Source: a virus (taxonomy: Duplodnaviria > Heunggongvirae > Uroviricota > Caudoviricetes). Taken from it: a stretch of 37,114 bases of DNA. Positions 1 to 37,114 of the stretch are shown here, piece by piece (position 1 is the stretch's first letter; each line of letters opens with the position of its first letter). The position numbers and the translations under genes are program-made. The stretch spans positions 1-37,114 of IMG/VR virus record IMGVR_UViG_3300029084_000052, one strand, 5' to 3'. The notes under the pieces were generated by a model. It searched no databases. It saw only the letters and a list, made by a program, of their open reading frames with translations, and was not told the origin of the DNA.

Positions 1-258
1 ATGCAAACCGTTATTTTTGGTCGTCCGGGTTGCCCTTACTGTGTGCGTGCAAAAGATCTGGCTGAGAAATTGAGCAATGAACGCGATGATTTTCAGTATC
101 AGTATGTTGATATTCGTGCGGAAGGGATCACTAAAGAAGATCTACAACAAAAGGCAGGTAAACCCGTAGAAACCGTGCCGCAGATTTTTGTCGATCAGCA
201 ACATATCGGCGGCTATACCGATTTTGCTGCATGGGTGAAAGAGAATCTGGACGCCTGA
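1..258 (+). CDS. grxA: Glutaredoxin 1
   Basis: 85-aa ORF with the CPYC active-site motif (GRPGCPYCVRAKDL); the sequence matches E. coli GrxA from memory. Confidence 0.9.
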   Translation: MQTVIFGRPGCPYCVRAKDLAEKLSNERDDFQYQYVDIRAEGITKEDLQQKAGKPVETVPQIFVDQQHIGGYTDFAAWVKENLDA

Positions 259-268
259 TCGTCTGACA

Positions 269-300
269 AGCCCTCACGTTGAGGGCTTTACTGATTTTTT
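269..300. terminator. Hairpin plus T-run between convergent grxA and ybjM, probable bidirectional terminator
   Basis: agccctc / gagggct stem with acgtt loop, followed by ttactgatttttt. Confidence 0.5.
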
Positions 301-665
301 CTGTGCTGTGGTTTAAACAAACTACTGATAAATAAGAAACACAGTGCCCCCAGCGCACACCAGAACACCGCACTTAATAACCATGCCAGCTCTTGCCAGA
401 ATGAGCGCGTCGGTGAAAAAAACAGCCGCATAATAAGCATTGAACAGGGTGCCGCCAGCATTGCGCCAAACAGAGGTTTCAGGACTTCTCTACGCTGTGA
501 AAAAAAGCTGGCAACTGCTCCAGGAAGAATGAAAAACAGCAAGCCGATTTCAGGATGCCCGGCAGCCCGAAAAGCGCCTTTCATGTGCGTTGCCAGAAAA
601 AGGCACACCACAATGAAGAGGACAAAACAGCAGATTGCCCCCGCCCAACGTTGTTTATGTTTCAC
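288..665 (-). CDS. ybjM: Inner membrane protein YbjM
   Basis: 125-aa hydrophobic ORF matching E. coli YbjM from memory; the start codon appears to be GTG. Confidence 0.8.
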   Translation of the reverse strand: MKHKQRWAGAICCFVLFIVVCLFLATHMKGAFRAAGHPEIGLLFFILPGAVASFFSQRREVLKPLFGAMLAAPCSMLIMRLFFSPTRSFWQELAWLLSAVFWCALGALCFLFISSLFKPQHRKNQ

Positions 666-934
666 TCGTTCCTCCTGACACTGCGTCTATCGAACACATT
701 TTTCGCCAGTGTGGCGTTCAGTAAGATAAAGCCGCTTCGCATTCCATGCTAATATAGGCCAACGCAATTCATATAGCCGTTGATACCTAATGTGATTACA
801 CTAGTAAAATATATTGTTACTTTACTATCGTTTAGGTGCGCTGAATGAATCTGCGCCCTGAATTCTGGTAAAAAACATTATCGTAAATTACCATTTCTTT
901 CAACAGCTTACTAGTAAACAAGAAGTTAGCCTCC

Positions 935-2620
935 GTGAATATAAACGTCGCCGAATTGTTAAATGGGAATTACATTCTGTTATTATTTGTGGTCCTCGCG
1001 CTTGGGCTATGTCTCGGAAAGTTACGACTTGGTTCGATCCAACTGGGTAATTCCATTGGCGTTTTAGTCGTATCGCTGTTATTAGGCCAACAACATTTCA
1101 GCATTAACACCGACGCGCTTAATCTTGGCTTTATGCTGTTTATTTTCTGCGTCGGGGTCGAAGCCGGACCGAACTTTTTTTCCATTTTTTTTCGCGATGG
1201 GAAAAATTACCTAATGTTAGCACTGGTGATGGTTGGCAGTGCGCTGGTGATCGCCTTAGGGTTAGGTAAGCTGTTTGGCTGGGATATTGGCCTGACGGCC
1301 GGTATGTTAGCAGGCTCTATGACGTCAACACCGGTTCTGGTCGGTGCTGGCGATACACTGCGTCATTCCGGCATGGAAAGCAGGCAGCTCTCACTGGCAC
1401 TGGATAATCTGAGCCTCGGGTATGCCTTAACCTATTTAATCGGTCTGGTGAGTTTGATTGTTGGTGCGCGTTACTTGCCGAAATTGCAGCATCAGGACTT
1501 ACAGACCAGCGCCCAGCAAATCGCCCGCGAACGTGGCCTGGACACTGATGCCAACCGTAAGGTTTATTTACCGGTGATCCGGGCCTACCGCGTCGGCCCG
1601 GAGCTGGTGGCCTGGACCGACGGCAAAAATCTGCGTGAACTGGGTATTTATCGACAAACTGGCTGTTACATTGAACGTATTCGGCGTAACGGGATTCTGG
1701 CAAATCCAGACGGTGATGCCGTACTACAAATGGGCGATGAAATAGCGTTGGTAGGCTATCCTGACGCCCACGCCCGACTCGATCCCAGTTTCCGTAATGG
1801 CAAAGAAGTTTTCGATCGTGACCTTCTCGACATGCGTATCGTCACTGAAGAAGTGGTCGTTAAAAACCATAACGCTGTTGGCAAACGCTTGGCACAACTG
1901 AAGTTGACCGATCACGGTTGCTTCCTTAACCGCGTCATTCGTAGCCAGATTGAGATGCCGATTGATGACAACGTCGTGCTTAACAAAGGTGACGTTTTAC
2001 AAGTCAGCGGCGATGCCCGTCGCGTAAAAACCATCGCCGATCGCATCGGCTTTATCTCGATTCACAGCCAGGTCACTGACTTGCTGGCATTCTGCGCCTT
2101 CTTTGTTATTGGGCTGATGATCGGGATGATCACCTTCCAGTTCAGCACATTCAGTTTCGGCATGGGGAACGCTGCCGGGTTGTTATTCGCCGGAATCATG
2201 CTGGGCTTTATGCGCGCGAACCACCCGACCTTCGGTTACATTCCGCAGGGTGCATTAAGCATGGTGAAGGAGTTCGGCTTGATGGTGTTTATGGCAGGCG
2301 TTGGTCTGAGCGCCGGTAGCGGTATTAATAACGGCCTGGGCGCAATTGGCGGTCAAATGTTGATTGCCGGATTGATTGTCAGTCTGGTGCCCGTGGTTAT
2401 CTGTTTCTTGTTCGGTGCTTATGTATTGCGAATGAACCGCGCACTGTTGTTCGGCGCAATGATGGGCGCACGCACCTGCGCGCCGGCAATGGAGATCATC
2501 AGTGATACAGCTCGCAGTAACATCCCGGCGCTGGGCTATGCGGGCACCTACGCAATCGCCAACGTCCTGCTGACGCTGGCAGGGACAATCATCGTCATGG
2601 TATGGCCAGGATTAGGATAA
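935..2620 (+). CDS. ybjL: Putative transport protein YbjL (AAE-family transporter with duplicated membrane domains and central TrkA-C-like domains)
   Basis: 561-aa ORF with GTG start and N- and C-terminal polytopic membrane regions; matches E. coli YbjL from memory. Confidence 0.85.
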
Positions 2621-2733
2621 AACTGAAGTTGCCCTGAAAATGAAATTTTTTTGCACAACCGCAGAACTTTTCCGCAGGGCATCAGTCTTAATTAGTGCCA
2701 CTGCTTTTCTTTGATGTCCCCATTTTGTGGAGC

Positions 2734-2776
2734 CCATCAACCCCGCCATTTCGGTTCAAGGTTGATGGGTTTTTTG
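2734..2776 (+). terminator. Stem-loop plus T-tract downstream of ybjL, at or near the left prophage junction
   Basis: cccatcaacc ... ggttgatggg stem followed by ttttttg on the plus strand. Confidence 0.4.
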
Positions 2777-2855
2777 TTGCCTGAAATTTAAGATGTTTAA
2801 AATCATGATGTTAGAAGCACTGTTTTTTAACGATGGCGACAAAATGGCGGCAGCG

Positions 2856-3074
2856 TCAAAGAGAGAGCGCCACCTGTCCTGATTTCATTGGATGCGGCTG
2901 AACTGGATTCGACTCTTTTGGTGTTGCAATCGAACGAACAAAAGTTTCATGGGTAACAAAAGTATGGCTGCAGTTAATGTTCTGGCACTGGTTATAACGC
3001 TCTTTGGTCAATGAAGATACCTGAAAACTGCTGCGAGTATGGGCGGCACTTCCACACAGTGGGCAAATCATCAT
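2856..3074 (-). CDS. ogr: Late-gene transcription activator, Ogr (P2) / B (186) family zinc-finger protein
   Basis: MMICPLCGSAAHTRSS...ERYNQCQNINCSHTF resembles P2 Ogr (CPLC ... C-x2-C-x3-NC); ATG chosen at the MMICPLCG position, giving about 72 aa. Confidence 0.8.
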   Translation of the reverse strand: MMICPLCGSAAHTRSSFQVSSLTKERYNQCQNINCSHTFVTHETFVRSIATPKESNPVQPHPMKSGQVALSL

Positions 3075-3164
3075 TTTTCGAGTTCTCCCCATTTTTGCTA
3101 AATTCACAACAATGATACCGTATTATTCCATTTTGCAAACTTAAAAGTTCTCCATTGCGAAGAA

Positions 3165-4265
3165 TCATTCCATTTCGAAATCATCAATCCTCACTTCAAG
3201 CTCCAGACTGGTCGTAAAACCGTTATCCGGGCTGACGGTATGTGTCAGGGTGGTAATGGTCCATTCCGCATCATCTATCGGCTGTTTAAAGCCGCTGACC
3301 TTCACAGGCATTTCCGTGTAGAGATCCGCCCGACCTTCCGCCAGTTGTAGCGAGAATGACGCAACACCGCGTTGCAGGCGTTCCCACTGCATTTTCGCTG
3401 CCCGTTCGGCGTTACTCCGATTAGCATAGGTGCGATTAAGTACCAGCACGTTTTCATCCGTCCCCACCAGGTAATCGCCCTGCTTCGCTTCCGGCTCTTT
3501 CTTCTGCTTCTTAGTCCTGCGCTTACGCTTCACCGTGGTGCTTTTTTTCTTCGCGGGTTCGCGGGTATGCAACCAGCTGGCTATTACACCCGTGTAAGCT
3601 CCGCGATCCGCCAGGGTAAAGCGGTGACTGTCGCCGTCCTTACGTGTGATAGTGATCACCGGTAGTGGTTTACCGCTGGCGCTTTTACCCTGTCCCTGCC
3701 GGATGAATAACAGATTGCCATTTTTCACCGACGCAATAGCACCGTACTGTCGCGCCAGCCGCATCAGAAAACTGCCGTCACTCTCATTAGTCTGGTCTAT
3801 ATGCTCCACGGGCTTATCCGACAGGTCTTTACCCAGTGCCATCTTCAGCTTGTGCCGCGCGGCTATTTCCTTCACCACTTCCCCGATGGTGGTGTTATGC
3901 CACGATTTTTCACGGCGGGTATTCAGCGTTTCACGAAAATCAGCACTTCGCGCCCGGATAGTCAGGCGGTCCGGTGCGCCAGTGTGTTCAATCTCGTCCA
4001 CCGTGAATGCCCCTTTCGGGAAAAGCGGCAGCCCCTTCCAGCCCAGCGCCAGCGTAATGACCGCACCACGGCGCGGCAGCACGATTTTTCCGTCGGCGTC
4101 GTCCAGCTCCAGATCAAGCTGGTCCGCTTCAAAGCCCCGATTGTCCGCCAGCGTCAGACTCATCAGACGGTTATCCAGCACAGTGGTGATATCCCTGCCC
4201 TCAATACTGATACTGAATGCCGGAGTTTTGTTGCCTTTGTTAAGCAGTTCAGAGCTGAAATTCAT
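3165..4265 (-). CDS. D: Tail protein D (late control gene D family)
   Basis: 366-aa ORF at the P2 gene D position; its start overlaps the gene U stop. Confidence 0.8.
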   Translation of the reverse strand: MNFSSELLNKGNKTPAFSISIEGRDITTVLDNRLMSLTLADNRGFEADQLDLELDDADGKIVLPRRGAVITLALGWKGLPLFPKGAFTVDEIEHTGAPDRLTIRARSADFRETLNTRREKSWHNTTIGEVVKEIAARHKLKMALGKDLSDKPVEHIDQTNESDGSFLMRLARQYGAIASVKNGNLLFIRQGQGKSASGKPLPVITITRKDGDSHRFTLADRGAYTGVIASWLHTREPAKKKSTTVKRKRRTKKQKKEPEAKQGDYLVGTDENVLVLNRTYANRSNAERAAKMQWERLQRGVASFSLQLAEGRADLYTEMPVKVSGFKQPIDDAEWTITTLTHTVSPDNGFTTSLELEVRIDDFEME

Positions 4266-28519: not shown

Positions 28520-30934
28520 TTAATACAGGTTTCGCCACTTATCATCTTCCTGCAAACGCTGGTTCCGATAGAAGATACGCAGGCCTGCTCCTGACGGAAT
28601 ACTGCCGCCGCGAAGGAGTAAATCGACCTCTTTCTCGCTACCATCAAATCCTCTGGACTTCAGCTCATAGACGAGCTGCTGTCGCTGATGGTCTGTAATT
28701 CGCTGTTTGTAGTCTTTACGCCGTTTCGGTTTAACCAGGCGTAACCTTGCTGCCAGTTCCCGGCGCTCTTTTTTGCTCATACTGTGCAGGTAATCGTGCA
28801 ACTGCTTGTCATCCATGCGGGTAATGTCCGTTCTGGTGCCCCCATCAGCTGATTTATCTTTCTCCTGTTGGTTCAAATTTTCAGCAAGGGGACAGTTATT
28901 GCCACGAGTCCAAGGGGCGCAAGCGCCCTGGTCGGCTGCCGCCTCCTGAACGTCAACGGCTTTACGGACCATTTTCCACTTCACTGCATGAGTGCAGATC
29001 TTGCCCTCTGCAATGGGTGACCAGATGCCATAAATACGAATACCGTGATCGCCATAGGCGGTCGGCTCTTCGTTGATTTCATAAGCGGTTCTGATGAGGT
29101 GATATTTACGGGGAACCAGTACGCCGCCCTGCTTCATGATGTAGGTGGCAAAGCAACCAGCATCAGCTGCAGCCAGAATGGCATCAAGGCGCGGGTTATC
29201 CAGTACCGGCGCACCTGCTTTTTTGTCACCCTGTTGCCTTGCCGCCTGACCAGCCAGCAATCGCAGTTCACGGTAAGCCTGACGCCCCGGAATGCCAAAG
29301 AAGCGGAATTGCTGAACACGATGCAGAGACGCCCAGGCATTAACGTATTCAGCGTTATCACGCAGAGATTTACCCGTTTCCTTGCTGATCTCGCCAGCCA
29401 GACCACGCCCGTCAATGTTCTTACTGATGTATTTCGCGATGTAGCTTGTTGGTGTACCTTTGCGCGGGTTTATCAGCTCAGACTTAAAGCGTGGTCCTGT
29501 GTTATTACCCAGCTCCTCGCGGTCTTCACGAATGGCAAACTTACGCAACAAAGCAGTAATGGCGCGGCGATCTTTTTTGCGCATAAAACACAACAGGTGC
29601 CAGTGAACTGTACCGTCATGATGCGGCTCAGCCACCCGCACGCCATACCAGCGCAATCCGGCTTTGTACATCGCCTTACGAAATGCAGCAAACATGCCGA
29701 CCAGATAATCACTGCTTTGTCTTACCGTCGCATTTGTCCAAGTCGGGTTGGGCCTGCCGTTATTTAGCGTGGAATGGAAACGTGACGGACAGGTGATGGT
29801 GTAGAAAACGGCGCAGTCACCGCGCATTTCCGCGATAAGCTCCAGACCTTTAACACATGCCATCATCTCATTGCGGCGATGCGCCGGGTTGCTACTACTG
29901 GCGTTTACCACGTCCTCCATATCCAGCGTGTCGCCGTCTTCGTTCACCAGTTCATGAGAACGGAAAAACTCCAGCGACTTACGGCGCTGCTCACGTTTAT
30001 GCATCACGGCTTCATAGCTGACATAGGGAGATGCTTTTTTGCTGACCAGGCAAACAGCACGCAACTGCTCTTCCCGCCATTCGCAACGCATCTTCCATAA
30101 TTTCCGATACCACCAGTCGGCGCACAACATACGCGCCAGCGAACCCGGAATGAGTTCATAGGGTACGGGTTTACGGCGGTTTCTTTTCCGGCGGAGTTGC
30201 TCAAACGCAGGAGGGATGACATCCAGACGCAGGGTTTCCGCCGCCACCCTTTCCCATGTCTTGCGGATTTCTTCTGGCTTAACGTCATCGGTGGCATACA
30301 AATCACCACAAACTGCATCAAGGCACATGCTCATATGCGCGGCAACAAGGGTAGACAGGCGCTTCACCTGAGCCTGACTCATTTCAGGCAAGATCAGCAG
30401 GCCGTCCAGCCCTTCATGGCTTGCCATAAAACGAAAAGATGCAGATAGCTGGCTGTCGCGTACATGCTCCAGTCGTTCCAGACATGGTTTAATCGTCTCA
30501 CGCAAATAGCGGGAATAAGCCTTTGGCCTGCCCAGGCTGCTGAAGTATTCAATACGTTGCATCAGCGGCTTGCTGATATGGGAAGGCTGGGCGTTAACGT
30601 CCGCCAGTATGACCATGTCCGGATTAAAACGCTGCTGCTCATGCACCAGCTTTGCCCGGCTAATGAGCTTATCCTGCTCCATTTCGCGCTGGACAGGATC
30701 ACGGGATTCATTAAAGAAATAACGCTCCCAGACCTGATCACTCAGTGCCTCGCGGCGCAGTTGTTCCTGCTTGTTATCGGCAGCGTACAGAGTGATCAGG
30801 TTTGAAAGCGCAGAAACCGGCGCAACTTCCGCCGGGTCCAGATAAGGGTTAATCGCCTTTTTCGGGCTGTTCCATGAGAATGCTGCGGCGGCCTCGTTAA
30901 AGCCGCTGCAGTTGTTCATATCAGCATGGCTCAT
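28520..30934 (-). CDS. A: Replication initiation protein A (rolling-circle nicking endonuclease, P2 gpA family)
   Basis: 804-aa ORF of P2 gpA size (about 761 aa) at the P2 A position; its start overlaps the Dam stop. Confidence 0.8.
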
Positions 30935-31788
30935 GCACGCACTCCGTACACGGCAGAACTATCCACGCCACGCGAAGGATCAAATCCCACCCAGCAGCGC
31001 GCCCCAGAAACAGCGATGATTTCTGTTGCAGATTTACTCTCACCAGCTGCTACGCCGATGCTGCGTTTTGCCTTGATGTAGTGGTGAGTAAAATTGCGAT
31101 ACAGCGAACGGATCAGGGATGTGTCACTGTTAGAAACAATGACCGGATGTCCTTCTGATGACCGATGTTCAAGAACGGATGCCAGGTGATACTGGTCATC
31201 TTCAGTGAAACCATCAGTGTGATAGCTGGAAAACGTACCGTCATACGGCGGATCGCAATACACCACATCCCCCGCCTTCAACATCGCCAGCGTTTCATCA
31301 AAGCTGGCGCAGATAAACGTTGCTCGTTGGGCTTTCTCTGCAAATGCGCGAATTTCTTTTTCAGGGAAATACGGATTTTTATAATTACCGTAGGGAATGT
31401 TGAAATGCCCGCTCTTGTTATAGCGACATAACCCACGGTAACCGTGACGATTGAGATACAGGAAATATACCGCTTTCATGAAATCAGTAATTTCAGTTGA
31501 GTAATTAAACTCCTGCCTTATGTTGTAATAAGCCACCTCCCTGTTTGCTTCCTTAAATAAAACTCTGGCGCGAGATATAAACGATTCACAATCAGCGGCA
31601 ACCTTTTTATAGAGGTTGATTAAATCAGGATTAATATCCGCAACCAGATAGCTGGGATAATCCGTCTCCATCATCACAGCACAGGAACCCGCGAAAGGTT
31701 CAACCAGTCGCGGGCCAGCTGGAAGATGTTTTTTCAGTTCGGGCATTACGGCGGTTTTATTTCCCGCCCATTTCAGGATGGTGCTCAT
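30931..31788 (-). CDS. DNA adenine methyltransferase (Dam/D12 class N6-adenine MTase)
   Basis: FAGSCAV (motif I) and DPPY (motif IV); ATG at the [11 protein letters not shown] position overlaps the upstream gene stop. Confidence 0.8.
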
Positions 31789-32312: not shown

Positions 32313-32654
32313 TTAATTCGGCATGGTTAGCCGTCTGGGAAATAAGCTCACCACTGCACGAAAATGATTCATTGCTTTAATCAACTCCCGCTTTTCGTCA
32401 GTGGTCAGCTCATTAATGCTGATGCTATGACGTTCAGCTGGAATTTTTGCCATAAAGAATATGGCAGCCAGTGCTCGTTTATTCTGTTCGTTATTGATAT
32501 CCCGTGGATCACGCATATCTTTAATAAACCGCTCAAGCTCTGACTCAATATTCAGGCCAAATACTTTCGCCCTTAACTCCGCAATGTGATTAAGTCCATT
32601 CAGGCGTTCACCGGGGCTTAATGGAACAGTTGCTGCAGCGCCTTCAATAGCCAT
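32313..32654 (-). CDS. Hypothetical phage early protein (at the fil/dhr position of the 186 early operon)
   Basis: 113-aa ORF with GGGGGA Shine-Dalgarno; overlaps the upstream gene by 37 nt. Confidence 0.5.
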   Translation of the reverse strand: MAIEGAAATVPLSPGERLNGLNHIAELRAKVFGLNIESELERFIKDMRDPRDINNEQNKRALAAIFFMAKIPAERHSISINELTTDEKRELIKAMNHFRAVVSLFPRRLTMPN

Positions 32655-32818
32655 TTGTTCCCCCGTTTTTTCGTAGATAGTTCTGCCAGCAATTCATCCT
32701 GTGAACGGCACGGATGCCAGCGTTTACCATCCTCCCCCATGATCCAGCCGTGACCGTAGTGCATTGCCGGGCTTTGTTTTACCAGCAGCGATGCAAATGA
32801 TGGTTCTTTCGTCAGCAT
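32618..32818 (-). CDS. Hypothetical phage early protein (position following cII)
   Basis: About 66 aa from the ATG (MLTKEPSF..), beginning 7 nt after the cII stop. Confidence 0.45.
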   Translation of the reverse strand: MLTKEPSFASLLVKQSPAMHYGHGWIMGEDGKRWHPCRSQDELLAELSTKKRGNKWLLKALQQLFH

Positions 32819-32825
32819 AAGCACC

Positions 32826-33335
32826 TCACAGCAAACCGAATGAAGCACCGAGGCCAGTAACGGTATCAACTGCACTCGCCATCGCAGGATTAGCCTGTAA
32901 ACGGGCCTGCAATGAAACAGCGGCCAGCGCCATCAGCCGTGTTACAGAGTTAATGCTGCTGATAGCATCACGACGACCTGCACTGGTTTTTACATCGCCG
33001 GATACCGCACCTGCAGCAACACGCCCGATCTCTGCGGTTGCACTCATGACATAATGCGGCAGTTTCTCTTTTGCCACCTCATTAATCGGTACACATGGCA
33101 GGCAGTGAATCTGTGCCAGAAAGCCATCTACCAGCGTTGAATCTTCAGTCAGATCGGTAAGCAACCAGATTTCTGGTGCGGTTAATAAATGAGGTTGAGC
33201 TGGGTTCAGCTTGTTCCGCAGAATCTGTACATTCATGCCTGCACGTTCTGCCAGTTGCACCAGGTTGTGGCGCAGTGCGAATGCACGACAGGCTTCGTCA
33301 AAATGTGGATGTTTGGAAACTTGGTAATCAAACAT
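32826..33335 (-). CDS. cII: CII-type transcription activator, phage 186 type
   Basis: [24 protein letters not shown]...[23 protein letters not shown]... is a close match to 186 CII from memory; 169 aa from the ATG. Confidence 0.8.
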
Positions 33336-33367
33336 AGTCGACACCCCTGATGTATCCCAAAATGGAA

Positions 33368-33589
33368 CTAGTTGAATACAACATTGCAATCAGTAAGTGC
33401 ATCAACGGTAAGAGCAGCAAGGTTGATCATTACCTTTTCTCTTTTCTTGTCTTTCCGAAGGCGATGGCGAGGGATGCGACCATCAGCCAGCATATCGTTG
33501 ATGGTGTCGATAGAAAGACCAGTAAGTTCGCTATAACGCTCAATTGTGACATGTGGCGTATTCAGAGTTATTGAAATGTTAGGGGTCAT
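33368..33589 (-). CDS. apl: Apl-like excisionase/transcriptional regulator (Cox analogue)
   Basis: About 73-aa HTH protein ([27 protein letters not shown]), first gene of the leftward lytic operon, AGGAG Shine-Dalgarno. Confidence 0.65.
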
Positions 33590-33684
33590 GATGCAACATC
33601 TCCTATTGGCTTGTGGTGAGCCTGTAGTAATCGTGATAAGTACCCAAATGGGGACAAAATTGATACTAGGATCGCAAAAGAGAT

Positions 33685-34281
33685 ATGTCAACATCAAAGT
33701 ACCCAAATGAGATCAAAATAAATCCCAATAAAGGTGGTAAGGCTGCGATTGAGCGATTAGTCGAAGCTTATGGCTTTACGACACGACAGGCTTTAGCTGA
33801 TCACTTGGAAGTATCAAAAAGCACTCTGGCGAACAGGTATTTGCGGGATACGTTTCCTGCAGACTGGATAATCCAATGTGCTCTTGAAACAGGAACCTCA
33901 CTGAAATGGTTAACCACCGGGCAAGGCCTTAAGCAAAGCTCGCTGACAGCAGCTACAGAAGAGCTTGCCAAGTTTCGCCTTACCGCAGGCAAAATGATTG
34001 AAGATGGTTCATATGTCTTCGATTCATCATTTCTTCCTGCAAATCTTTCATCACCAATTGTTATTCAGGATGGGCTCGTCACATACATTTGTGATCAAAA
34101 ATTTTCTGAAGTACTTGATGGGCACTGGTTAATCAACATCGACGGAACCTATTCCATTCGAAAAATCACAAAGCTTCCAAAAGGTATGATTAAAATTACA
34201 AGTACAGAGAATAGCTTTGAATGTGCATTTTCTGATATTGAAGTAGTTGCTTGTATAAGAAGTACAATAATTTCAAATTAA
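33685..34281 (+). CDS. cI: CI-type immunity repressor, phage 186 type
   Basis: 198-aa ORF with N-terminal motifs (AYGF...QALADHL..S.STLANRY...CALETG.SL.WL.TG.G) resembling 186 CI from memory; divergent from apl. Confidence 0.7.
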   Translation: MSTSKYPNEIKINPNKGGKAAIERLVEAYGFTTRQALADHLEVSKSTLANRYLRDTFPADWIIQCALETGTSLKWLTTGQGLKQSSLTAATEELAKFRLTAGKMIEDGSYVFDSSFLPANLSSPIVIQDGLVTYICDQKFSEVLDGHWLINIDGTYSIRKITKLPKGMIKITSTENSFECAFSDIEVVACIRSTIISN

Positions 34282-34301
34282 TATAGTAAAAGGATTTAAA
34301 A

Positions 34302-35978
34302 ATGAATTCATTTTCCATCGTTATATTCTTATTAGCATTTCTCGCCCCCATTCTAGCTGTAATATTATTTAAGCAAAGCAAAAAACATAAAGCGGCTATA
34401 AATACCTTGACAGCTAACAACATAGCCCTTTCCAACCAACTGAAAGAAAATCAAGAAGAATTAGCACAGACTGTACGAGATCTATCAGAGCTTGAAGGAC
34501 GAGCTGCGCCATTATGGCAATACGTAGAATTGCACAGCGCAGTGATGGAAGCAGAGAATAAGATAAAAAATGCAGACTCAATAGCCAGGCAAAAAATAGA
34601 AGAAGCCCAAATAAAGGCTGCTAAGACAGTAAACGAAGCAAATTATCAAGCTCAGATAAAAATAAGCAACGCTAATAGCGAAGCTATAGCAATTACTAAA
34701 GACGCTCGCGATGCACGCCTGAAAGCTAAAGAACGTCTTGATAATGCCAATAGTAAAGCAAATGAGCTGATCTCAAATGCTAATGACAATGCAGTGAAAA
34801 TTATTTCCGATGCAGAAGAAAGAGCAAAAGAGATTGCTGGTTCAGCATATGAAGCTAAAGAGTTTGCAGAAAAATATGAAGCAGTTGCCAAATCAATGAA
34901 AAATAAAATTGAAGGTTATGGTGATGAATGGATCATCCCTAACCGTAGCGTTCTCGATGAATTGGCAGAAAATTATGAGTTTACAGATGCAGGTAAGGAA
35001 TTACAAAAAGCCAGGGAGTTAACAAAATCATTAATAAAAACTAATAAAGCTGCTTCGTGTGATTATGTTGAACAAAACAGGCGTAATACTGCTATCAACT
35101 TTGTTTTAGATGCCTTCAATGGAAGAGTTGACAGTATTTTATCAAAAGTCAAACACAACAATTTTGGAAAACTTTCCCAAGAGATAAAAGATGCGTTTCA
35201 ACTTGTAAATTACAATGGTTCTGCCTTTAGGTCCGCAAAAATAAGTGACATCTATCTTCAAGCTCGACTCAACGAGCTAAAATGGGGAGTTGCAGTTAAT
35301 GAAATTATGCTCGAAGAAAAAGAAGAGCAAAGAAGGATTAAAGAACAACTTCGTGAAGAGGAAAGAGCTCGTAGGGAGTATGAAAAAGCGATAAAAGAAG
35401 CTGAAAAAGAAGAGAAAGCTATTCAGCAAGCTATAAATAAAGCAACAAAAGAGCTTATGCTTGCAAATGAAGAACAACGCTTAGCTTTAGAGCAAAAAAT
35501 AGCTGAACTACAGTTAAAATATGAAGAAGCTGAAGCTAAAAACCAACGAGCTATTTCTATGGCTCAACAAACTAGATCAGGCCACGTTTATATAATTAGT
35601 AATATTGGCTCATTTGGCGAAGATGTATATAAAATTGGAATGACACGCCGCCTTGAACCACTTGATCGTGTTCGTGAACTCGGTGATGCTAGTGTTCCTT
35701 TTTCGTTCGATGTTCATGCGATGATTTATAGTGATGATGCACCATCATTAGAAAATCATCTGCATAAAGTCTTCAACGAAAAACAGGTCAATAAAATTAA
35801 CTCACGAAAAGAGTTTTTCAACGTAAATATTAAAGAAATTAAGTCTGTTATTGAAGATATGAACATCAACGCACAATGGACAATGTTTGCGGAAGCGAAA
35901 GAATATAGAGAGTCACTGGCGATTGAGCAAGAGCGCAAAGCAGCAACTTCCGCCAACGATGAACTGCATGTTGCTTAG
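34302..35978 (+). CDS. Membrane-anchored coiled-coil protein with a C-terminal T5orf172/GIY-YIG-like domain (DUF4041-like architecture); accessory gene
   Basis: N-terminal TM helix, long Ala/Lys/Glu-rich repeats, C-terminal GHVYIISNIGSFGEDVYKIGMTRRLEPLDRVRELGDASVPFSFDVHAMIYS; AT-rich; AAAAGGA Shine-Dalgarno 20 nt after the cI stop. Confidence 0.6.
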   Translation: MNSFSIVIFLLAFLAPILAVILFKQSKKHKAAINTLTANNIALSNQLKENQEELAQTVRDLSELEGRAAPLWQYVELHSAVMEAENKIKNADSIARQKIEEAQIKAAKTVNEANYQAQIKISNANSEAIAITKDARDARLKAKERLDNANSKANELISNANDNAVKIISDAEERAKEIAGSAYEAKEFAEKYEAVAKSMKNKIEGYGDEWIIPNRSVLDELAENYEFTDAGKELQKARELTKSLIKTNKAASCDYVEQNRRNTAINFVLDAFNGRVDSILSKVKHNNFGKLSQEIKDAFQLVNYNGSAFRSAKISDIYLQARLNELKWGVAVNEIMLEEKEEQRRIKEQLREEERARREYEKAIKEAEKEEKAIQQAINKATKELMLANEEQRLALEQKIAELQLKYEEAEAKNQRAISMAQQTRSGHVYIISNIGSFGEDVYKIGMTRRLEPLDRVRELGDASVPFSFDVHAMIYSDDAPSLENHLHKVFNEKQVNKINSRKEFFNVNIKEIKSVIEDMNINAQWTMFAEAKEYRESLAIEQERKAATSANDELHVA

Positions 35979-36061: not shown

Positions 36062-37114
36062 ATGGCAGTACGAAAACTCACCACAGGAAAATGGCTTTGC
36101 GAATGTTACCCCGCCGGACGTAGTGGACGTCGTGTGCGTAAACAATTCGCCACCAAAGGCGAAGCTCTGGCTTTTGAGCGTCACACGATGGAAGAAACCG
36201 AAGCAAAGCCCTGGCTGGGTGAATCAGTGGATCGTCGAACACTGAAAGACGTGGTTGAACTATGGTTCAAACTACATGGTAAATCTCTGACAGCTGGCCA
36301 GCATGTCTATGACAAACTGCTGTTAATGGTTGACGCTCTGGGCAATCCCCTTGCAACCGATCTCACATCTAAAATGTTTGCCCACTATCGAGATAAACGC
36401 CTGACAGGAGAGATCTACTTCAGCGAGAAATGGAAGAAAGGAGCAAGCCCGGTCACCATTAACCTGGAGCAAAGCTATCTAAGTAGTGTTTTTAGCGAAC
36501 TATCCCGCCTGGGCGAATGGTCGTATCCGAACCCACTGGAGAACATGCGAAAATTCACCATCGCAGAAAAAGAGATGGCATGGCTTACCCATGAGCAGAT
36601 TGTTGAATTACTGGCTGATTGCAAACGTCAGGACCCAATTCTGGCACTGGTAGTTAAGATATGCTTAAGCACAGGCGCACGCTGGCGTGAAGCCGTAAAT
36701 CTTACCCGCTCACAGGTGACCAAATACCGAATTACCTTTGTAAGAACGAAGGGGAAGAAAAACAGAAGCATCCCTATCAGTAAAGAGCTTTACGAAGAGA
36801 TCATGGCGCTTGATGGGTTCAATTTCTTCACAGACTGCTATTTTCAATTTTTATCCGTGATGGAAAAAACGTCTATCGTGCTCCCTCGCGGTCAACTGAC
36901 ACACGTTCTGCGCCATACGTTTGCGGCGCACTTCATGATGTCGGGTGGAAACATCCTGGCCTTACAAAAAATTCTCGGACATCACGATATAAAAATGACG
37001 ATGCGTTACGCACATCTGGCACCGGATCATCTGGAAACGGCGCTCCGTTTCAATCCTCTGGCAACGCTGCCAAGTGGCGACAAAGTGGCGGCAGCGGTTG
37101 GCATTACCCCGTAA
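36062..37114 (+). CDS. int: Tyrosine integrase, P2 Int family
   Basis: 350 aa with LSTGARWREA and HVLRHTFAAHFMMSGGNILALQKILGH...MTMRYAHL motifs matching P2 Int from memory; the stop codon is the last three bases of the window. Confidence 0.85.
   Translation: MAVRKLTTGKWLCECYPAGRSGRRVRKQFATKGEALAFERHTMEETEAKPWLGESVDRRTLKDVVELWFKLHGKSLTAGQHVYDKLLLMVDALGNPLATDLTSKMFAHYRDKRLTGEIYFSEKWKKGASPVTINLEQSYLSSVFSELSRLGEWSYPNPLENMRKFTIAEKEMAWLTHEQIVELLADCKRQDPILALVVKICLSTGARWREAVNLTRSQVTKYRITFVRTKGKKNRSIPISKELYEEIMALDGFNFFTDCYFQFLSVMEKTSIVLPRGQLTHVLRHTFAAHFMMSGGNILALQKILGHHDIKMTMRYAHLAPDHLETALRFNPLATLPSGDKVAAAVGITP

What the first reader, a model, noticed from the sequence alone, without database searches (positions are those of the whole stretch)
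33590..33720. Lysis-lysogeny switch region with a 13-bp perfect direct repeat flanking the cI start
AAGTACCCAAATG occurs at 33638..33650 and 33697..33709, each followed by a similar 10-mer (GGGACAAAAT / AGATCAAAAT). The first copy is in the apl-cI intergenic region and the second lies inside the first codons of cI. Spacing is 59 bp. These are candidate operator or Apl/CI binding sites of a 186-type switch.
Basis: partly seen in the sequence, partly recalled or inferred. Interest (0 to 1): 0.4.

Follow-up and report, generated by a model that had tools for sequence, protein, structure and literature searches.

The report
Repressor operators flanking a prophage lytic promoter
The repeated 13-mer is real and marks two of three probable binding sites for the prophage's own 186-type CI repressor around its lytic promoter; this is an uncharacterised immunity type of a well-understood switch, not a new kind of system.

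Summary
AAGTACCCAAATG occurs exactly at 33638 and 33697, 59 bp apart (P about 1e-4 in shuffles), and is the longest local direct repeat in the window.

Each copy is the left half plus centre of a 16-bp dyad-symmetric unit:
- O1: 33640-33655, GTACCCAAATGGGGAC. It is a perfect palindrome in a 95%-identical phage.
- O3: 33699-33714.
- O2: 33670-33685, a weaker third unit that fills the 17-bp spacer of a strong minus-strand promoter (TTGACA-17-TAGTAT), which is pR for apl-cII.

O1 covers the predicted start site. O3 lies upstream of the -35, inside cI codons 5-10.

The units track the CI DNA-binding domain:
- All 42 instances found with this N-terminal domain keep them, even where the C-terminal domain falls to 35% identity.
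- Phages with a 100%-identical Apl but a different CI lose them exactly at 33636/33637.
- Other CI clades carry their own repeated units at the same three places, about 30 bp apart.
- cI codons 1-15 show almost no synonymous variation (1/14 against 56/62, p=2e-9).

Best reading: these are CI operators of a heteroimmune 186-type switch. Apl binding is not supported. No binding was measured. It differs from 186 in spacing (about 30 bp against about 21 bp) and in lacking clear distal sites.

The parts
33638..33650 (+). Copy 1 of the exact 13-mer AAGTACCCAAATG
33697..33709 (+). Copy 2 of the exact 13-mer; cI codons 5-9
33640..33655 (.). O1, a 16-bp dyad-symmetric operator candidate, GTACCCAAATGGGGAC (family consensus GTNCCCAAATGGGNAC). 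It covers about +1 to +16 of pR.
   Evidence: It is a perfect palindrome, GTACCCAATTGGGTAC, in phage 813R9. Its core CCCAAATGGG is largely conserved across 42 instances, and common polymorphism is confined to the dyad-partner positions 3 and 14. It is the top PWM hit in the window.
33670..33685 (.). O2, a weaker operator candidate, GATCGCAAAAGAGATA. It fills the pR spacer and its last base is the A of the cI ATG.
   Evidence: It sits in the same register as the central unit in every CI clade, including clades where all three units are near-identical, and in the register of the 186 central pR palindrome. It is conserved in clade A. Its similarity to O1 and O3 is only weak: PWM rank 45, top 0.12% of positions.
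33699..33714 (.). O3, an operator candidate, GTACCCAAATGAGATC, at about -44 to -59 of pR and inside cI codons 5-10.
   Evidence: It is the second-best PWM hit. It is largely conserved in clade A: five variants among 25 distinct sequences, with the only frequent change at centre position 9. It lies in the synonymous-site-depleted 5' end of cI.
33663..33691 (-). Lytic promoter pR: -35 TTGACA (33691-33686), 17-nt spacer, -10 TAGTAT (33668-33663). The predicted start is about 33655-33657, transcribing apl-cII.
   Evidence: It is the only sigma-70 consensus hit in 33250-33800, at 10/12. It is conserved across the CI family.
33685..34281 (+). cI, a 198-aa 186-type immunity repressor
   Evidence: PF07022 8e-32 and PF16452 4e-27. 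PDB 2FJR 1.6e-27.
33685..33729 (+). The 5' 45 nt of cI, under DNA-level constraint (overlaps the -35, O3 and 15 nt beyond)
   Evidence: Synonymous variation occurs in 1 of 14 degenerate codons here, against 56 of 62 in codons 16-80 (Fisher p=2.3e-9).
33368..33589 (-). apl/cox-like gene (73 aa), first gene of the pR operon
   Evidence: phrog_575 'Cox-like excisionase and repressor', 9.6e-32
32826..33335 (-). cII-like gene
   Evidence: PF06892 Phage_CP76, 3e-42
33636..33637 (.). Mosaic junction. DNA to the left (apl side) is shared with phages that carry a different cI. The O1-O2-O3-cI cassette starts here.
   Evidence: More than 20 Klebsiella phage records match only up to 33635/33636. About 185 E. 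coli genomes match only 33590-33636. Alignment.
33571..33599 (+). Possible pL (TTGAAA-17-CAACAT), placed only by analogy with 186 pL; low confidence
   Evidence: Its position relative to the apl start matches the 186 annotation. It falls below the promoter-scan threshold.
33353..33368 (.). FR-like element TATCCCAAAATGGAAC, directly after the apl stop; a possible distal CI site and/or the pE -10
   Evidence: It has the same position as the annotated 186 FR. Its core is conserved in clade A, but it is also identical in the heteroimmune phage 4LV2017, and its PWM rank is only 11.

Best explanation
The two 13-mers belong to two 16-bp dyad-symmetric operators for the prophage's own 186-type CI repressor: O1 (33640-33655) and O3 (33699-33714). 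A third, more degenerate operator, O2 (33670-33685), fills the spacer of the lytic promoter pR.

Proposed mechanism (inferred):
- CI dimers bind through the N-terminal helix-turn-helix domain. They sit at about +1 to +16 (O1), -15 to -30 (O2) and -44 to -59 (O3).
- Cooperativity through the C-terminal oligomerisation domain, as in 186, holds them together so that RNA polymerase cannot use pR.
- This silences apl-cII and the early lytic operon. It also removes convergent interference on the lysogenic transcript, which reads rightwards through these sites into cI, the PD-Lambda-1 defence gene and int.
- The three sites plus cI form the immunity cassette that is exchanged as one unit between related phages.

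Shown here: the repeat, its dyad symmetry, the promoter geometry, the co-inheritance with the CI N-terminal domain, and the DNA-level constraint.

Inferred, not shown: actual CI binding, cooperativity, the oligomeric state and the position of pL.
For: 1. The repeat is non-random.
2. Dyad symmetry. O1 is a perfect 16-bp palindrome in phage 813R9. Among 25 distinct versions from 42 instances, frequent polymorphism falls only at O1 positions 3 and 14, which are dyad partners, and at the centres of O2 and O3. The 7 nt between O1 and the -10 vary freely.
3. Promoter geometry. TTGACA-17-TAGTAT on the minus strand lies exactly between the copies.
4. The sites track CI and not Apl or CII.
   - All clade-A loci keep O1, O2 and O3. 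These include five proteins (P0076, P0084, P0085, P0089, P0099; loci L049-L055) whose N-terminal domain is 89-91% identical but whose C-terminal domain is only 35-42% identical.
   - Apl is 100% identical in 4LV2017 and 85-97% identical in at least four other operator types.
   - Similarity to those phages stops at 33636.
5. Family-wide architecture. In 27 dereplicated cI loci, the best local direct-repeat offset is 28-31 or 58-60 bp in 14, against 13 of 187 control segments. Different clades carry different units in the same three registers, for example three copies of GATYGCTTTTGGAATC in Brenneria.
6. Link to the experimentally defined 186 sites. O2 lies in the register of the 186 central pR palindrome ATCTCCCAATTGAGAGAT, inside the annotated CI-binding and vir region. 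O1 and O3 share the CCCAA(A/T)TG(G/A)G core with it. The recognition helix SKSTLANRY resembles ASSSLSNRY of 186.
7. cI codons 1-15 lack synonymous variation (p=2e-9).
8. Some sister clades have 186-like distal copies. L020 has a 16/16 inverted copy of its O1, 267 bp inside cI.
Against: - No binding data exist for this repressor. Everything here is comparative.
- O2 resembles O1 and O3 only weakly within this clade: PWM score 0.95, top 0.12% of positions. Its near-universal GATC start suggests a constraint other than CI specificity.
- Suppressed synonymous change in the first 15 codons could partly reflect translation-initiation or N-terminal peptide constraints.
- In the Serratia relative (L047), O1 is kept but O3 has diverged (GTACACAGAACGAGTA), so the O1/O3 identity is not universal.
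- Spacings of 29-30 bp are 2.8 turns at 10.5 bp per turn. This does not fit the two-turn register reported for the 186 wheel (PMC3675496).
Confidence: 0.85

Rival explanations
1. The repeats are binding sites for the Apl/Cox-like protein, which in 186 binds between pR and pL and represses both.
For: Copy 1 lies between the predicted pR and the apl start, which is roughly where the 186 Apl sites lie.
Against: - Apl is 100% identical in 4LV2017 and 85-97% identical in several other phages that have quite different sequences at these positions. The Serratia relative, with only 41% Apl identity, keeps a GTACCC-type O1.
- Known Apl sites are 6-bp units 10-11 bp apart, and three adjacent ones are needed (PMC7498355). 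Here there are two 16-bp dyads 59 bp apart.
- Copy 2 lies upstream of pR, outside the pR-pL interval.
Confidence: 0.04
2. There is no DNA-binding role. Copy 2 is conserved because it encodes the CI N-terminus (KYPNE) or serves translation initiation. Copy 1 is a relic of a local duplication or a chance match.
For: Copy 2 is coding. The 5' ends of genes often show reduced synonymous change. The peptide KYPNEIKINP is conserved.
Against: - Copy 1 is non-coding, yet its core is largely conserved across 42 instances from many genera, while its flanks vary.
- It is palindromic, which a coding relic would not be.
- Unrelated CI clades repeat their own motif in the same registers.
- Chance probability is about 1e-4.
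Confidence: 0.04
3. The units are recognised mainly by a host factor or by the methylation machinery (Dam, SeqA, or the alpha C-terminal domain of RNA polymerase at an UP element) and not by CI.
For: O2 and O3 each carry a GATC. The O2 GATC is conserved in almost every clade whatever the operator sequence. O3 sits where an UP element would sit.
Against: The O1/O3 core (GTNCCCAAATGGG) contains no GATC. It changes with the CI N-terminal domain between clades living in the same hosts, which a host-factor site would not do.
Confidence: 0.05

Closest known systems
Coliphage 186 pR operators for CI (three sites over pR; locus of vir mutations)
   Same: - Homologous repressor: both domains, 33% identity, 2FJR E=1.6e-27.
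- Same gene order: int-cI facing apl-cII.
- A central operator fills the pR spacer next to the -35.
- Shared CCCAATTG-type core.
- Three sites over the lytic promoter.
   Different: - Different operator sequence (GTNCCC arms), so presumably heteroimmune.
- Centre-to-centre spacing is 30 and 29 bp spanning 75 bp. In 186 it is about two turns within an annotated 57 bp (PMC3675496).
- The cI ATG lies at the O2/-35 junction and O3 is inside the coding sequence. In 186 the ATG is 15 bp outside the -35.
186 pB operator pair and the distal FL/FR sites (A-type sites; looping on the CI 14-mer wheel)
   Same: - The 186 pB pair is 32 bp apart, about three turns, similar to the spacing here (PMC3675496).
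- An FR-like 16-mer sits in the same place as 186 FR, directly after the apl stop.
- Sister clades have clear FL-like or FR-like copies.
   Different: - In this window no FL-like site was found.
- The FR-like and pB-region matches are not statistically significant, and they are shared with heteroimmune phages.
P2, P2 Hy dis and WPhi C-repressor operators (two direct repeats flanking parts of the early promoter)
   Same: They belong to the same phage family. They have convergent early and lysogenic promoters. Repeated operator units bracket promoter elements, with variable spacing between immunity classes (PMC1904268, PMC1904263).
   Different: P2 C is an unrelated small repressor that reads non-palindromic direct repeats (PMC2995052; PMC3448106). 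Here the repressor is 186-type and the units are dyad-symmetric. The 'direct repeat' arises only because two palindromic sites share the same left arm.
186 Apl operator arrays at pR-pL and attP
   Same: They are located in the same switch region.
   Different: Apl sites are 6-bp units at 10-11 bp spacing and need three adjacent copies (PMC7498355). The units here do not co-vary with Apl.

Membership tests
186-type CI/Apl lysis-lysogeny switch | Repressor with an N-terminal CI helix-turn-helix domain and the 186 CI C-terminal oligomerisation domain | tested here: met
   PF07022 8.2e-32 and PF16452 4.1e-27. PDB 2FJR 1.6e-27 over residues 21-189.
186-type CI/Apl lysis-lysogeny switch | Divergent operons: cI(-int) on one strand, apl-cII on the other | tested here: met
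   cI is at 33685-34281 (+) and int at 36062 onwards (+). The Cox/Apl-like gene is at 33589-33368 (-) and the CII-like gene at 33335-32826 (-).
186-type CI/Apl lysis-lysogeny switch | Face-to-face pR and pL promoters about 40-60 bp apart | tested here: inconclusive
   pR is found at 10/12. pL is placed only by analogy (TTGAAA-17-CAACAT, 8/12, below the scan threshold). There are no transcript data.
186-type CI/Apl lysis-lysogeny switch | Three CI operators covering pR | tested here: met
   Three dyad units lie at fixed registers, conserved in 42 instances and paralleled in other clades. This is sequence-level evidence only. O2 is weak.
186-type CI/Apl lysis-lysogeny switch | Operator spacing of two helical turns (about 21 bp), as at 186 pR | tested here: not met
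   Centre-to-centre spacings are 30 and 29 bp. Some sister clades (L010 type) do show 20-21 bp repeats.
186-type CI/Apl lysis-lysogeny switch | Distal FL and FR sites about 300 bp either side of pR | tested here: inconclusive
   The FR-like 16-mer at 33353-33368 is in the homologous position, but its PWM rank is 11 and it is shared with a heteroimmune phage. No FL-like site was found. Sister clades have such sites.
186-type CI/Apl lysis-lysogeny switch | CI operators at the promoter of the late activator gene (pB) | tested here: inconclusive
   The region upstream of ogr/B holds AAATGGGGA and CAAAATGGAA motifs. The region is 96.7% identical in heteroimmune phages.
186-type CI/Apl lysis-lysogeny switch | CI assembles into a 14-mer wheel that wraps or loops DNA | not testable with these tools
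   The C-terminal domain is homologous to 2FKD at 5e-9. Oligomeric state cannot be computed here.
Apl/Cox binding array (excision-directionality factor) | Short direct repeats one helical turn apart, at least three adjacent, co-varying with the Apl/Cox protein | tested here: not met
   The units are 16-bp dyads 59 bp apart. An identical Apl occurs with different units. Criteria are from PMC7498355.
P2 C-type direct-repeat operators | P2 C-family repressor that reads non-palindromic direct repeats | tested here: not met
   The repressor is 186-type. The units are palindromic.

The most novel reading that the evidence does not exclude
This widespread CI clade, and several sister clades, place their three pR operators about 29-30 bp apart, not in the two-turn register that fits the 186 seven-dimer wheel. 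That would imply a different oligomer geometry or DNA path, for example non-adjacent dimers engaging O1 and O3.

In addition, a GATC is conserved at the -10-proximal end of O2 in almost every clade, even where the sibling operators have a different base there. This could add a Dam-methylation input to the lysis-lysogeny decision.
Probability: 0.15. Interest if true: 0.55.

Novelty: new member of a known kind. Interest (0 to 1): 0.3.

Why it matters
It defines, at the sequence level, the operator set and immunity-cassette boundary of a common but unstudied 186-type immunity class. The class is present in about 165 of 5,426 complete E. coli genomes and in Klebsiella, Enterobacter, Citrobacter and other genera. 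A review of P2-like regulatory regions notes that CI immunity classes are poorly studied (PMC3448106).

It gives concrete targets for reporter, footprinting and cross-immunity tests. Set against the sister clades, it also offers a natural series of operator sequences and spacings (about 21 and about 30 bp) for testing the 186 wheel model.

It does not reveal a new mechanism.

Tried and rejected
- **PWM scan for extra CI sites.** Apart from O1, O2 and O3, no hit exceeds what shuffled sequence gives (null top score about 12.7). The 33353 and 36529 hits are not significant genome-wide.
- **FL-like site in cI.** None found by direct inspection of 33930-34000.
- **pB as a CI target.**
  - CAAAATGGAA occurs only at pB and at the FR-like site.
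  - AAATGGGGA occurs 4 times against 0.36 expected.
  - The motifs were chosen after seeing the data.
  - The pB region is 96.7% identical in heteroimmune phages, so I do not claim them as operators.
- **Link between the O2 GATC and a phage dam gene.** Uninformative. The flanks are too short and the hosts carry Dam anyway.
- **Rfam scan of 32500-34800.** Only sub-threshold noise, so no known RNA element explains the repeat.
- **IMG/VR scan for GTNCCCAAATGGGNAC.** 97 of 120 stretches lack the neighbouring O2 and promoter signature and are most likely chance matches, as expected for a 14-base pattern in a collection this large. 23 carry the full switch. None of the 23 has a second exact copy in the stretch retrieved.
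- **Original 186 operator papers (JBC 1996, Mol Cell 2006).** Not held in the library. The exact published 186 half-site definitions are therefore taken from the GenBank features and secondary papers, not from the primary source.
- **CII as the binder.** Rejected. cII lies in the segment shared with heteroimmune phages.

Full report
**Observation.** AAGTACCCAAATG occurs exactly twice in the window, at 33638-33650 and 33697-33709 on the + strand, 59 bp apart. The similarity extends to 23 nt at 20/23. In 20,000 shuffles of 33590-33720, an exact direct repeat of 13 or more appeared twice. In a sliding survey it is the only local exact repeat of 13 or more in the 37-kb window.

**Setting.** The window is a P2/186-family (Peduoviridae) prophage inserted next to grxA-ybjC-ybjL. 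The genes around the finding are:
- cI, 33685-34281 (+), 198 aa. It has PF07022 and PF16452 and matches the 186 CI structure 2FJR at 1.6e-27.
- A Cox/Apl-like gene, 33589-33368 (-), phrog_575.
- A CII-like gene, 33335-32826 (-).
- Downstream of cI, a PD-Lambda-1 defence gene and int.

The consensus scan finds one strong promoter in 33250-33800. It lies on the minus strand: TTGACA (33691-33686), 17 nt, TAGTAT (33668-33663), 10/12. By position and direction this is pR, the lytic promoter for apl-cII. Its -35 overlaps the cI start codon. Copy 1 lies just downstream of the -10 and copy 2 just upstream of the -35.

**What the repeat is.** Each 13-mer is the left arm plus centre of a 16-bp dyad.
- O1 is GTACCCAAATGGGGAC (33640-33655). 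In phage vB_EcoM-813R9, 95% identical, it reads GTACCCAATTGGGTAC, a perfect palindrome.
- O3 is GTACCCAAATGAGATC (33699-33714).
- O2 is GATCGCAAAAGAGATA (33670-33685). It lies midway between them and fills the promoter spacer, 30 bp from O1 and 29 bp from O3. Its arms (GATCGC, TATCTC) resemble the right arm of O3 (GATCTC).

With +1 near 33655, the three units lie at about +1 to +16, -15 to -30 and -44 to -59.

**Comparative evidence, same repressor.** I collected 42 instances (25 distinct sequences) of this switch from GTDB genomes, assemblies and IMG/VR. All carry O1, O2 and O3 with no indels.
- Frequent polymorphism is confined to O1 positions 3 and 14, which are dyad partners, and to the centre positions of O2 and O3.
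- The 7 nt between O1 and the -10 vary at 5 positions.
- The operator set is unchanged in proteins whose N-terminal domain is 89-91% identical but whose C-terminal domain is only 35-42% identical. The sites therefore follow the DNA-binding domain.
- cI codons 1-15, which overlap the -35 and O3, show synonymous variation in 1 of 14 degenerate codons, against 56 of 62 in codons 16-80 (p=2.3e-9). This points to constraint on the DNA itself.

**Comparative evidence, different repressor.**
- More than 20 Klebsiella phage records, and about 185 E. coli genomes, share the apl side at 91-97% identity and then diverge exactly at 33636/33637, two bases before copy 1.
- Apl is 100% identical in phage 4LV2017 and 85-97% identical in several loci with other operator types. 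The Serratia relative has only 41% Apl identity yet keeps a GTACCC-type O1.
- It also fits what is known of Apl sites: 6-bp direct repeats 10-11 bp apart (PMC7498355).

**Family-wide architecture.** After aligning 43 cI loci on the conserved pR, each clade shows its own repeated unit in the same three registers. Examples are three copies of GATYGCTTTTGGAATC in Brenneria, and GTTCAC...GAAATC in Yersinia and Rahnella. In 27 dereplicated loci, the best local direct-repeat offset is 28-31 or 58-60 bp in 14, against 13 of 187 control segments.

O2 lies in the register of the 186 central palindrome ATCTCCCAATTGAGAGAT. That palindrome lies inside the CI-binding region annotated in the 186 record as the locus of vir mutations. 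It shares the CCCAA(T/A)TG core with O1 and O3. Some sister clades also carry 186-style distal copies. The clearest is a 16/16 inverted copy of O1, 267 bp inside cI, in L020.

**Mechanism.** The best-supported reading is that O1, O2 and O3 are CI operators that occlude pR. CI would bind cooperatively through its C-terminal domain, as in 186: three strong pR sites, a wheel of seven dimers, and relief of interference on pL (PMC3675496; bioRxiv 10.1101/2021.10.29.466366). Binding, cooperativity, oligomeric state and the position of pL are all inferred. pL is placed only by analogy at 33571-33599.

**Differences from 186.**
- The arms differ (GTNCCC), so the phage is presumably heteroimmune.
- Spacing is about 30 bp, not about 21 bp. 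It is closer to the 32-bp pair at 186 pB (PMC3675496).
- The cI start codon lies at the O2/-35 junction of pR, with O3 inside the coding sequence.
- No convincing FL or FR sites were found. TATCCCAAAATGGAAC at 33353-33368 sits exactly where 186 FR sits. However, its PWM rank is only 11, it is identical in a heteroimmune phage, and it may simply be the pE -10.

**Caveats.**
- O2 resembles O1 and O3 only weakly in this clade.
- Part of the 5' codon constraint could be translational.
- O3 has diverged in the Serratia relative.
- The primary 186 operator papers were not available.

**Verdict.** The CI-operator interpretation is supported, at about 0.85. The Apl alternative is rejected. This is a new immunity-class member of a known kind of switch, and interest is modest. 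The most novel open points are the three-turn spacing and the conserved GATC in O2.

Noticed in passing
window 33670-33673 (also 33711-33714); loci L004-L044: A GATC (Dam site) at the -10-proximal end of O2 is kept in almost every CI clade, even where the sibling O1 and O3 units have GATT, GTTC or GTAC at the same place. 186 itself lacks it. The prophage encodes a Dam methylase at 30931-31788 (-). This suggests a constraint on O2 beyond CI specificity.
   Followed up: partly
window 33353-33368: The conserved 16-mer TATCCCAAAATGGAAC lies directly after the apl stop, the same position as the annotated 186 FR site. Its core TCYCAAAATGGAAC is conserved in clade A, but it is also identical in the heteroimmune phage 4LV2017. 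It could be a distal CI site, the pE -10, or both.
   Followed up: partly
window 3075-3180 (- strand), 2716-2735, 35280-35288: The promoter region of the ogr/B late activator (pB: TTTGCA-16-TATCAT) holds CAAAATGGAA, whose only other copy is the FR-like site. It also holds AAATGGGGA, which occurs 4 times in the window against 0.36 expected, including in O1 and near the prophage end. These may be weak CI half-sites. However, the motifs were chosen post hoc and the region is 96.7% identical in heteroimmune phages.
   Followed up: partly
window 33636/33637: There is a sharp mosaic junction. About 185 complete E. coli genomes and more than 20 Klebsiella phage records share the apl-cII side and then switch to a different cI cassette exactly here.
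   Followed up: yes
cI protein (window 33685-34278) and homologues P0076, P0084, P0085, P0089, P0099: Domain shuffling: N-terminal residues 1-80 stay 89-91% identical while the C-terminal oligomerisation domain drops to 35-42%. Longer variants of about 300 aa, with an extra N-terminal domain, also exist.
   Followed up: partly
window 34302-35978: The 558-aa gene between cI and int (DUF4041 plus T5orf172) matches the PD-Lambda-1 anti-phage defence model at 4.7e-120. Relatives carry different cargo in the same slot, for example AAA_15/AAA_21 ATPases in L051. This looks like a defence hotspot in the lysogenic operon.
   Followed up: partly
L020 (about 267 bp downstream of its O2, inside cI); L013 +317; L023, L033 and L043 -287: Sister CI clades have distal copies of their own operators about 270-320 bp from pR. 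L020 has a 16/16 inverted copy. This matches the 186 FL/FR layout.
   Followed up: partly
window 33612-33639: Three loose direct repeats, YGTRRTRA (TGTGGTGA, TGTAGTAA, CGTGATAA), lie 11 and 9 bp apart in the segment shared by all phages with this Apl. They are candidate Apl/Cox sites by eye only. The middle one is not well conserved.
   Followed up: no
window 3141-3162 (- strand): There is a 21-bp insertion, CTTCGCAATGGAGAACTTTTAA, upstream of pB relative to Fels-2 and Cartapus. It resembles the O1-position sequence of the 4LV2017 immunity type (CTTCACAAAACGGAGAAT). It may be a leftover operator from another immunity class.
   Followed up: no
window 1-2860: Host genes grxA, ybjC and ybjL occupy 1-2620. 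The prophage end lies between about 2650 and 2850. There are 186-type Int arm-like repeats (GCCGCCATTTTGTCGCCATCG, about 2830-2850) and a terminator hairpin after ogr (consensus from PMC3448106).
   Followed up: no
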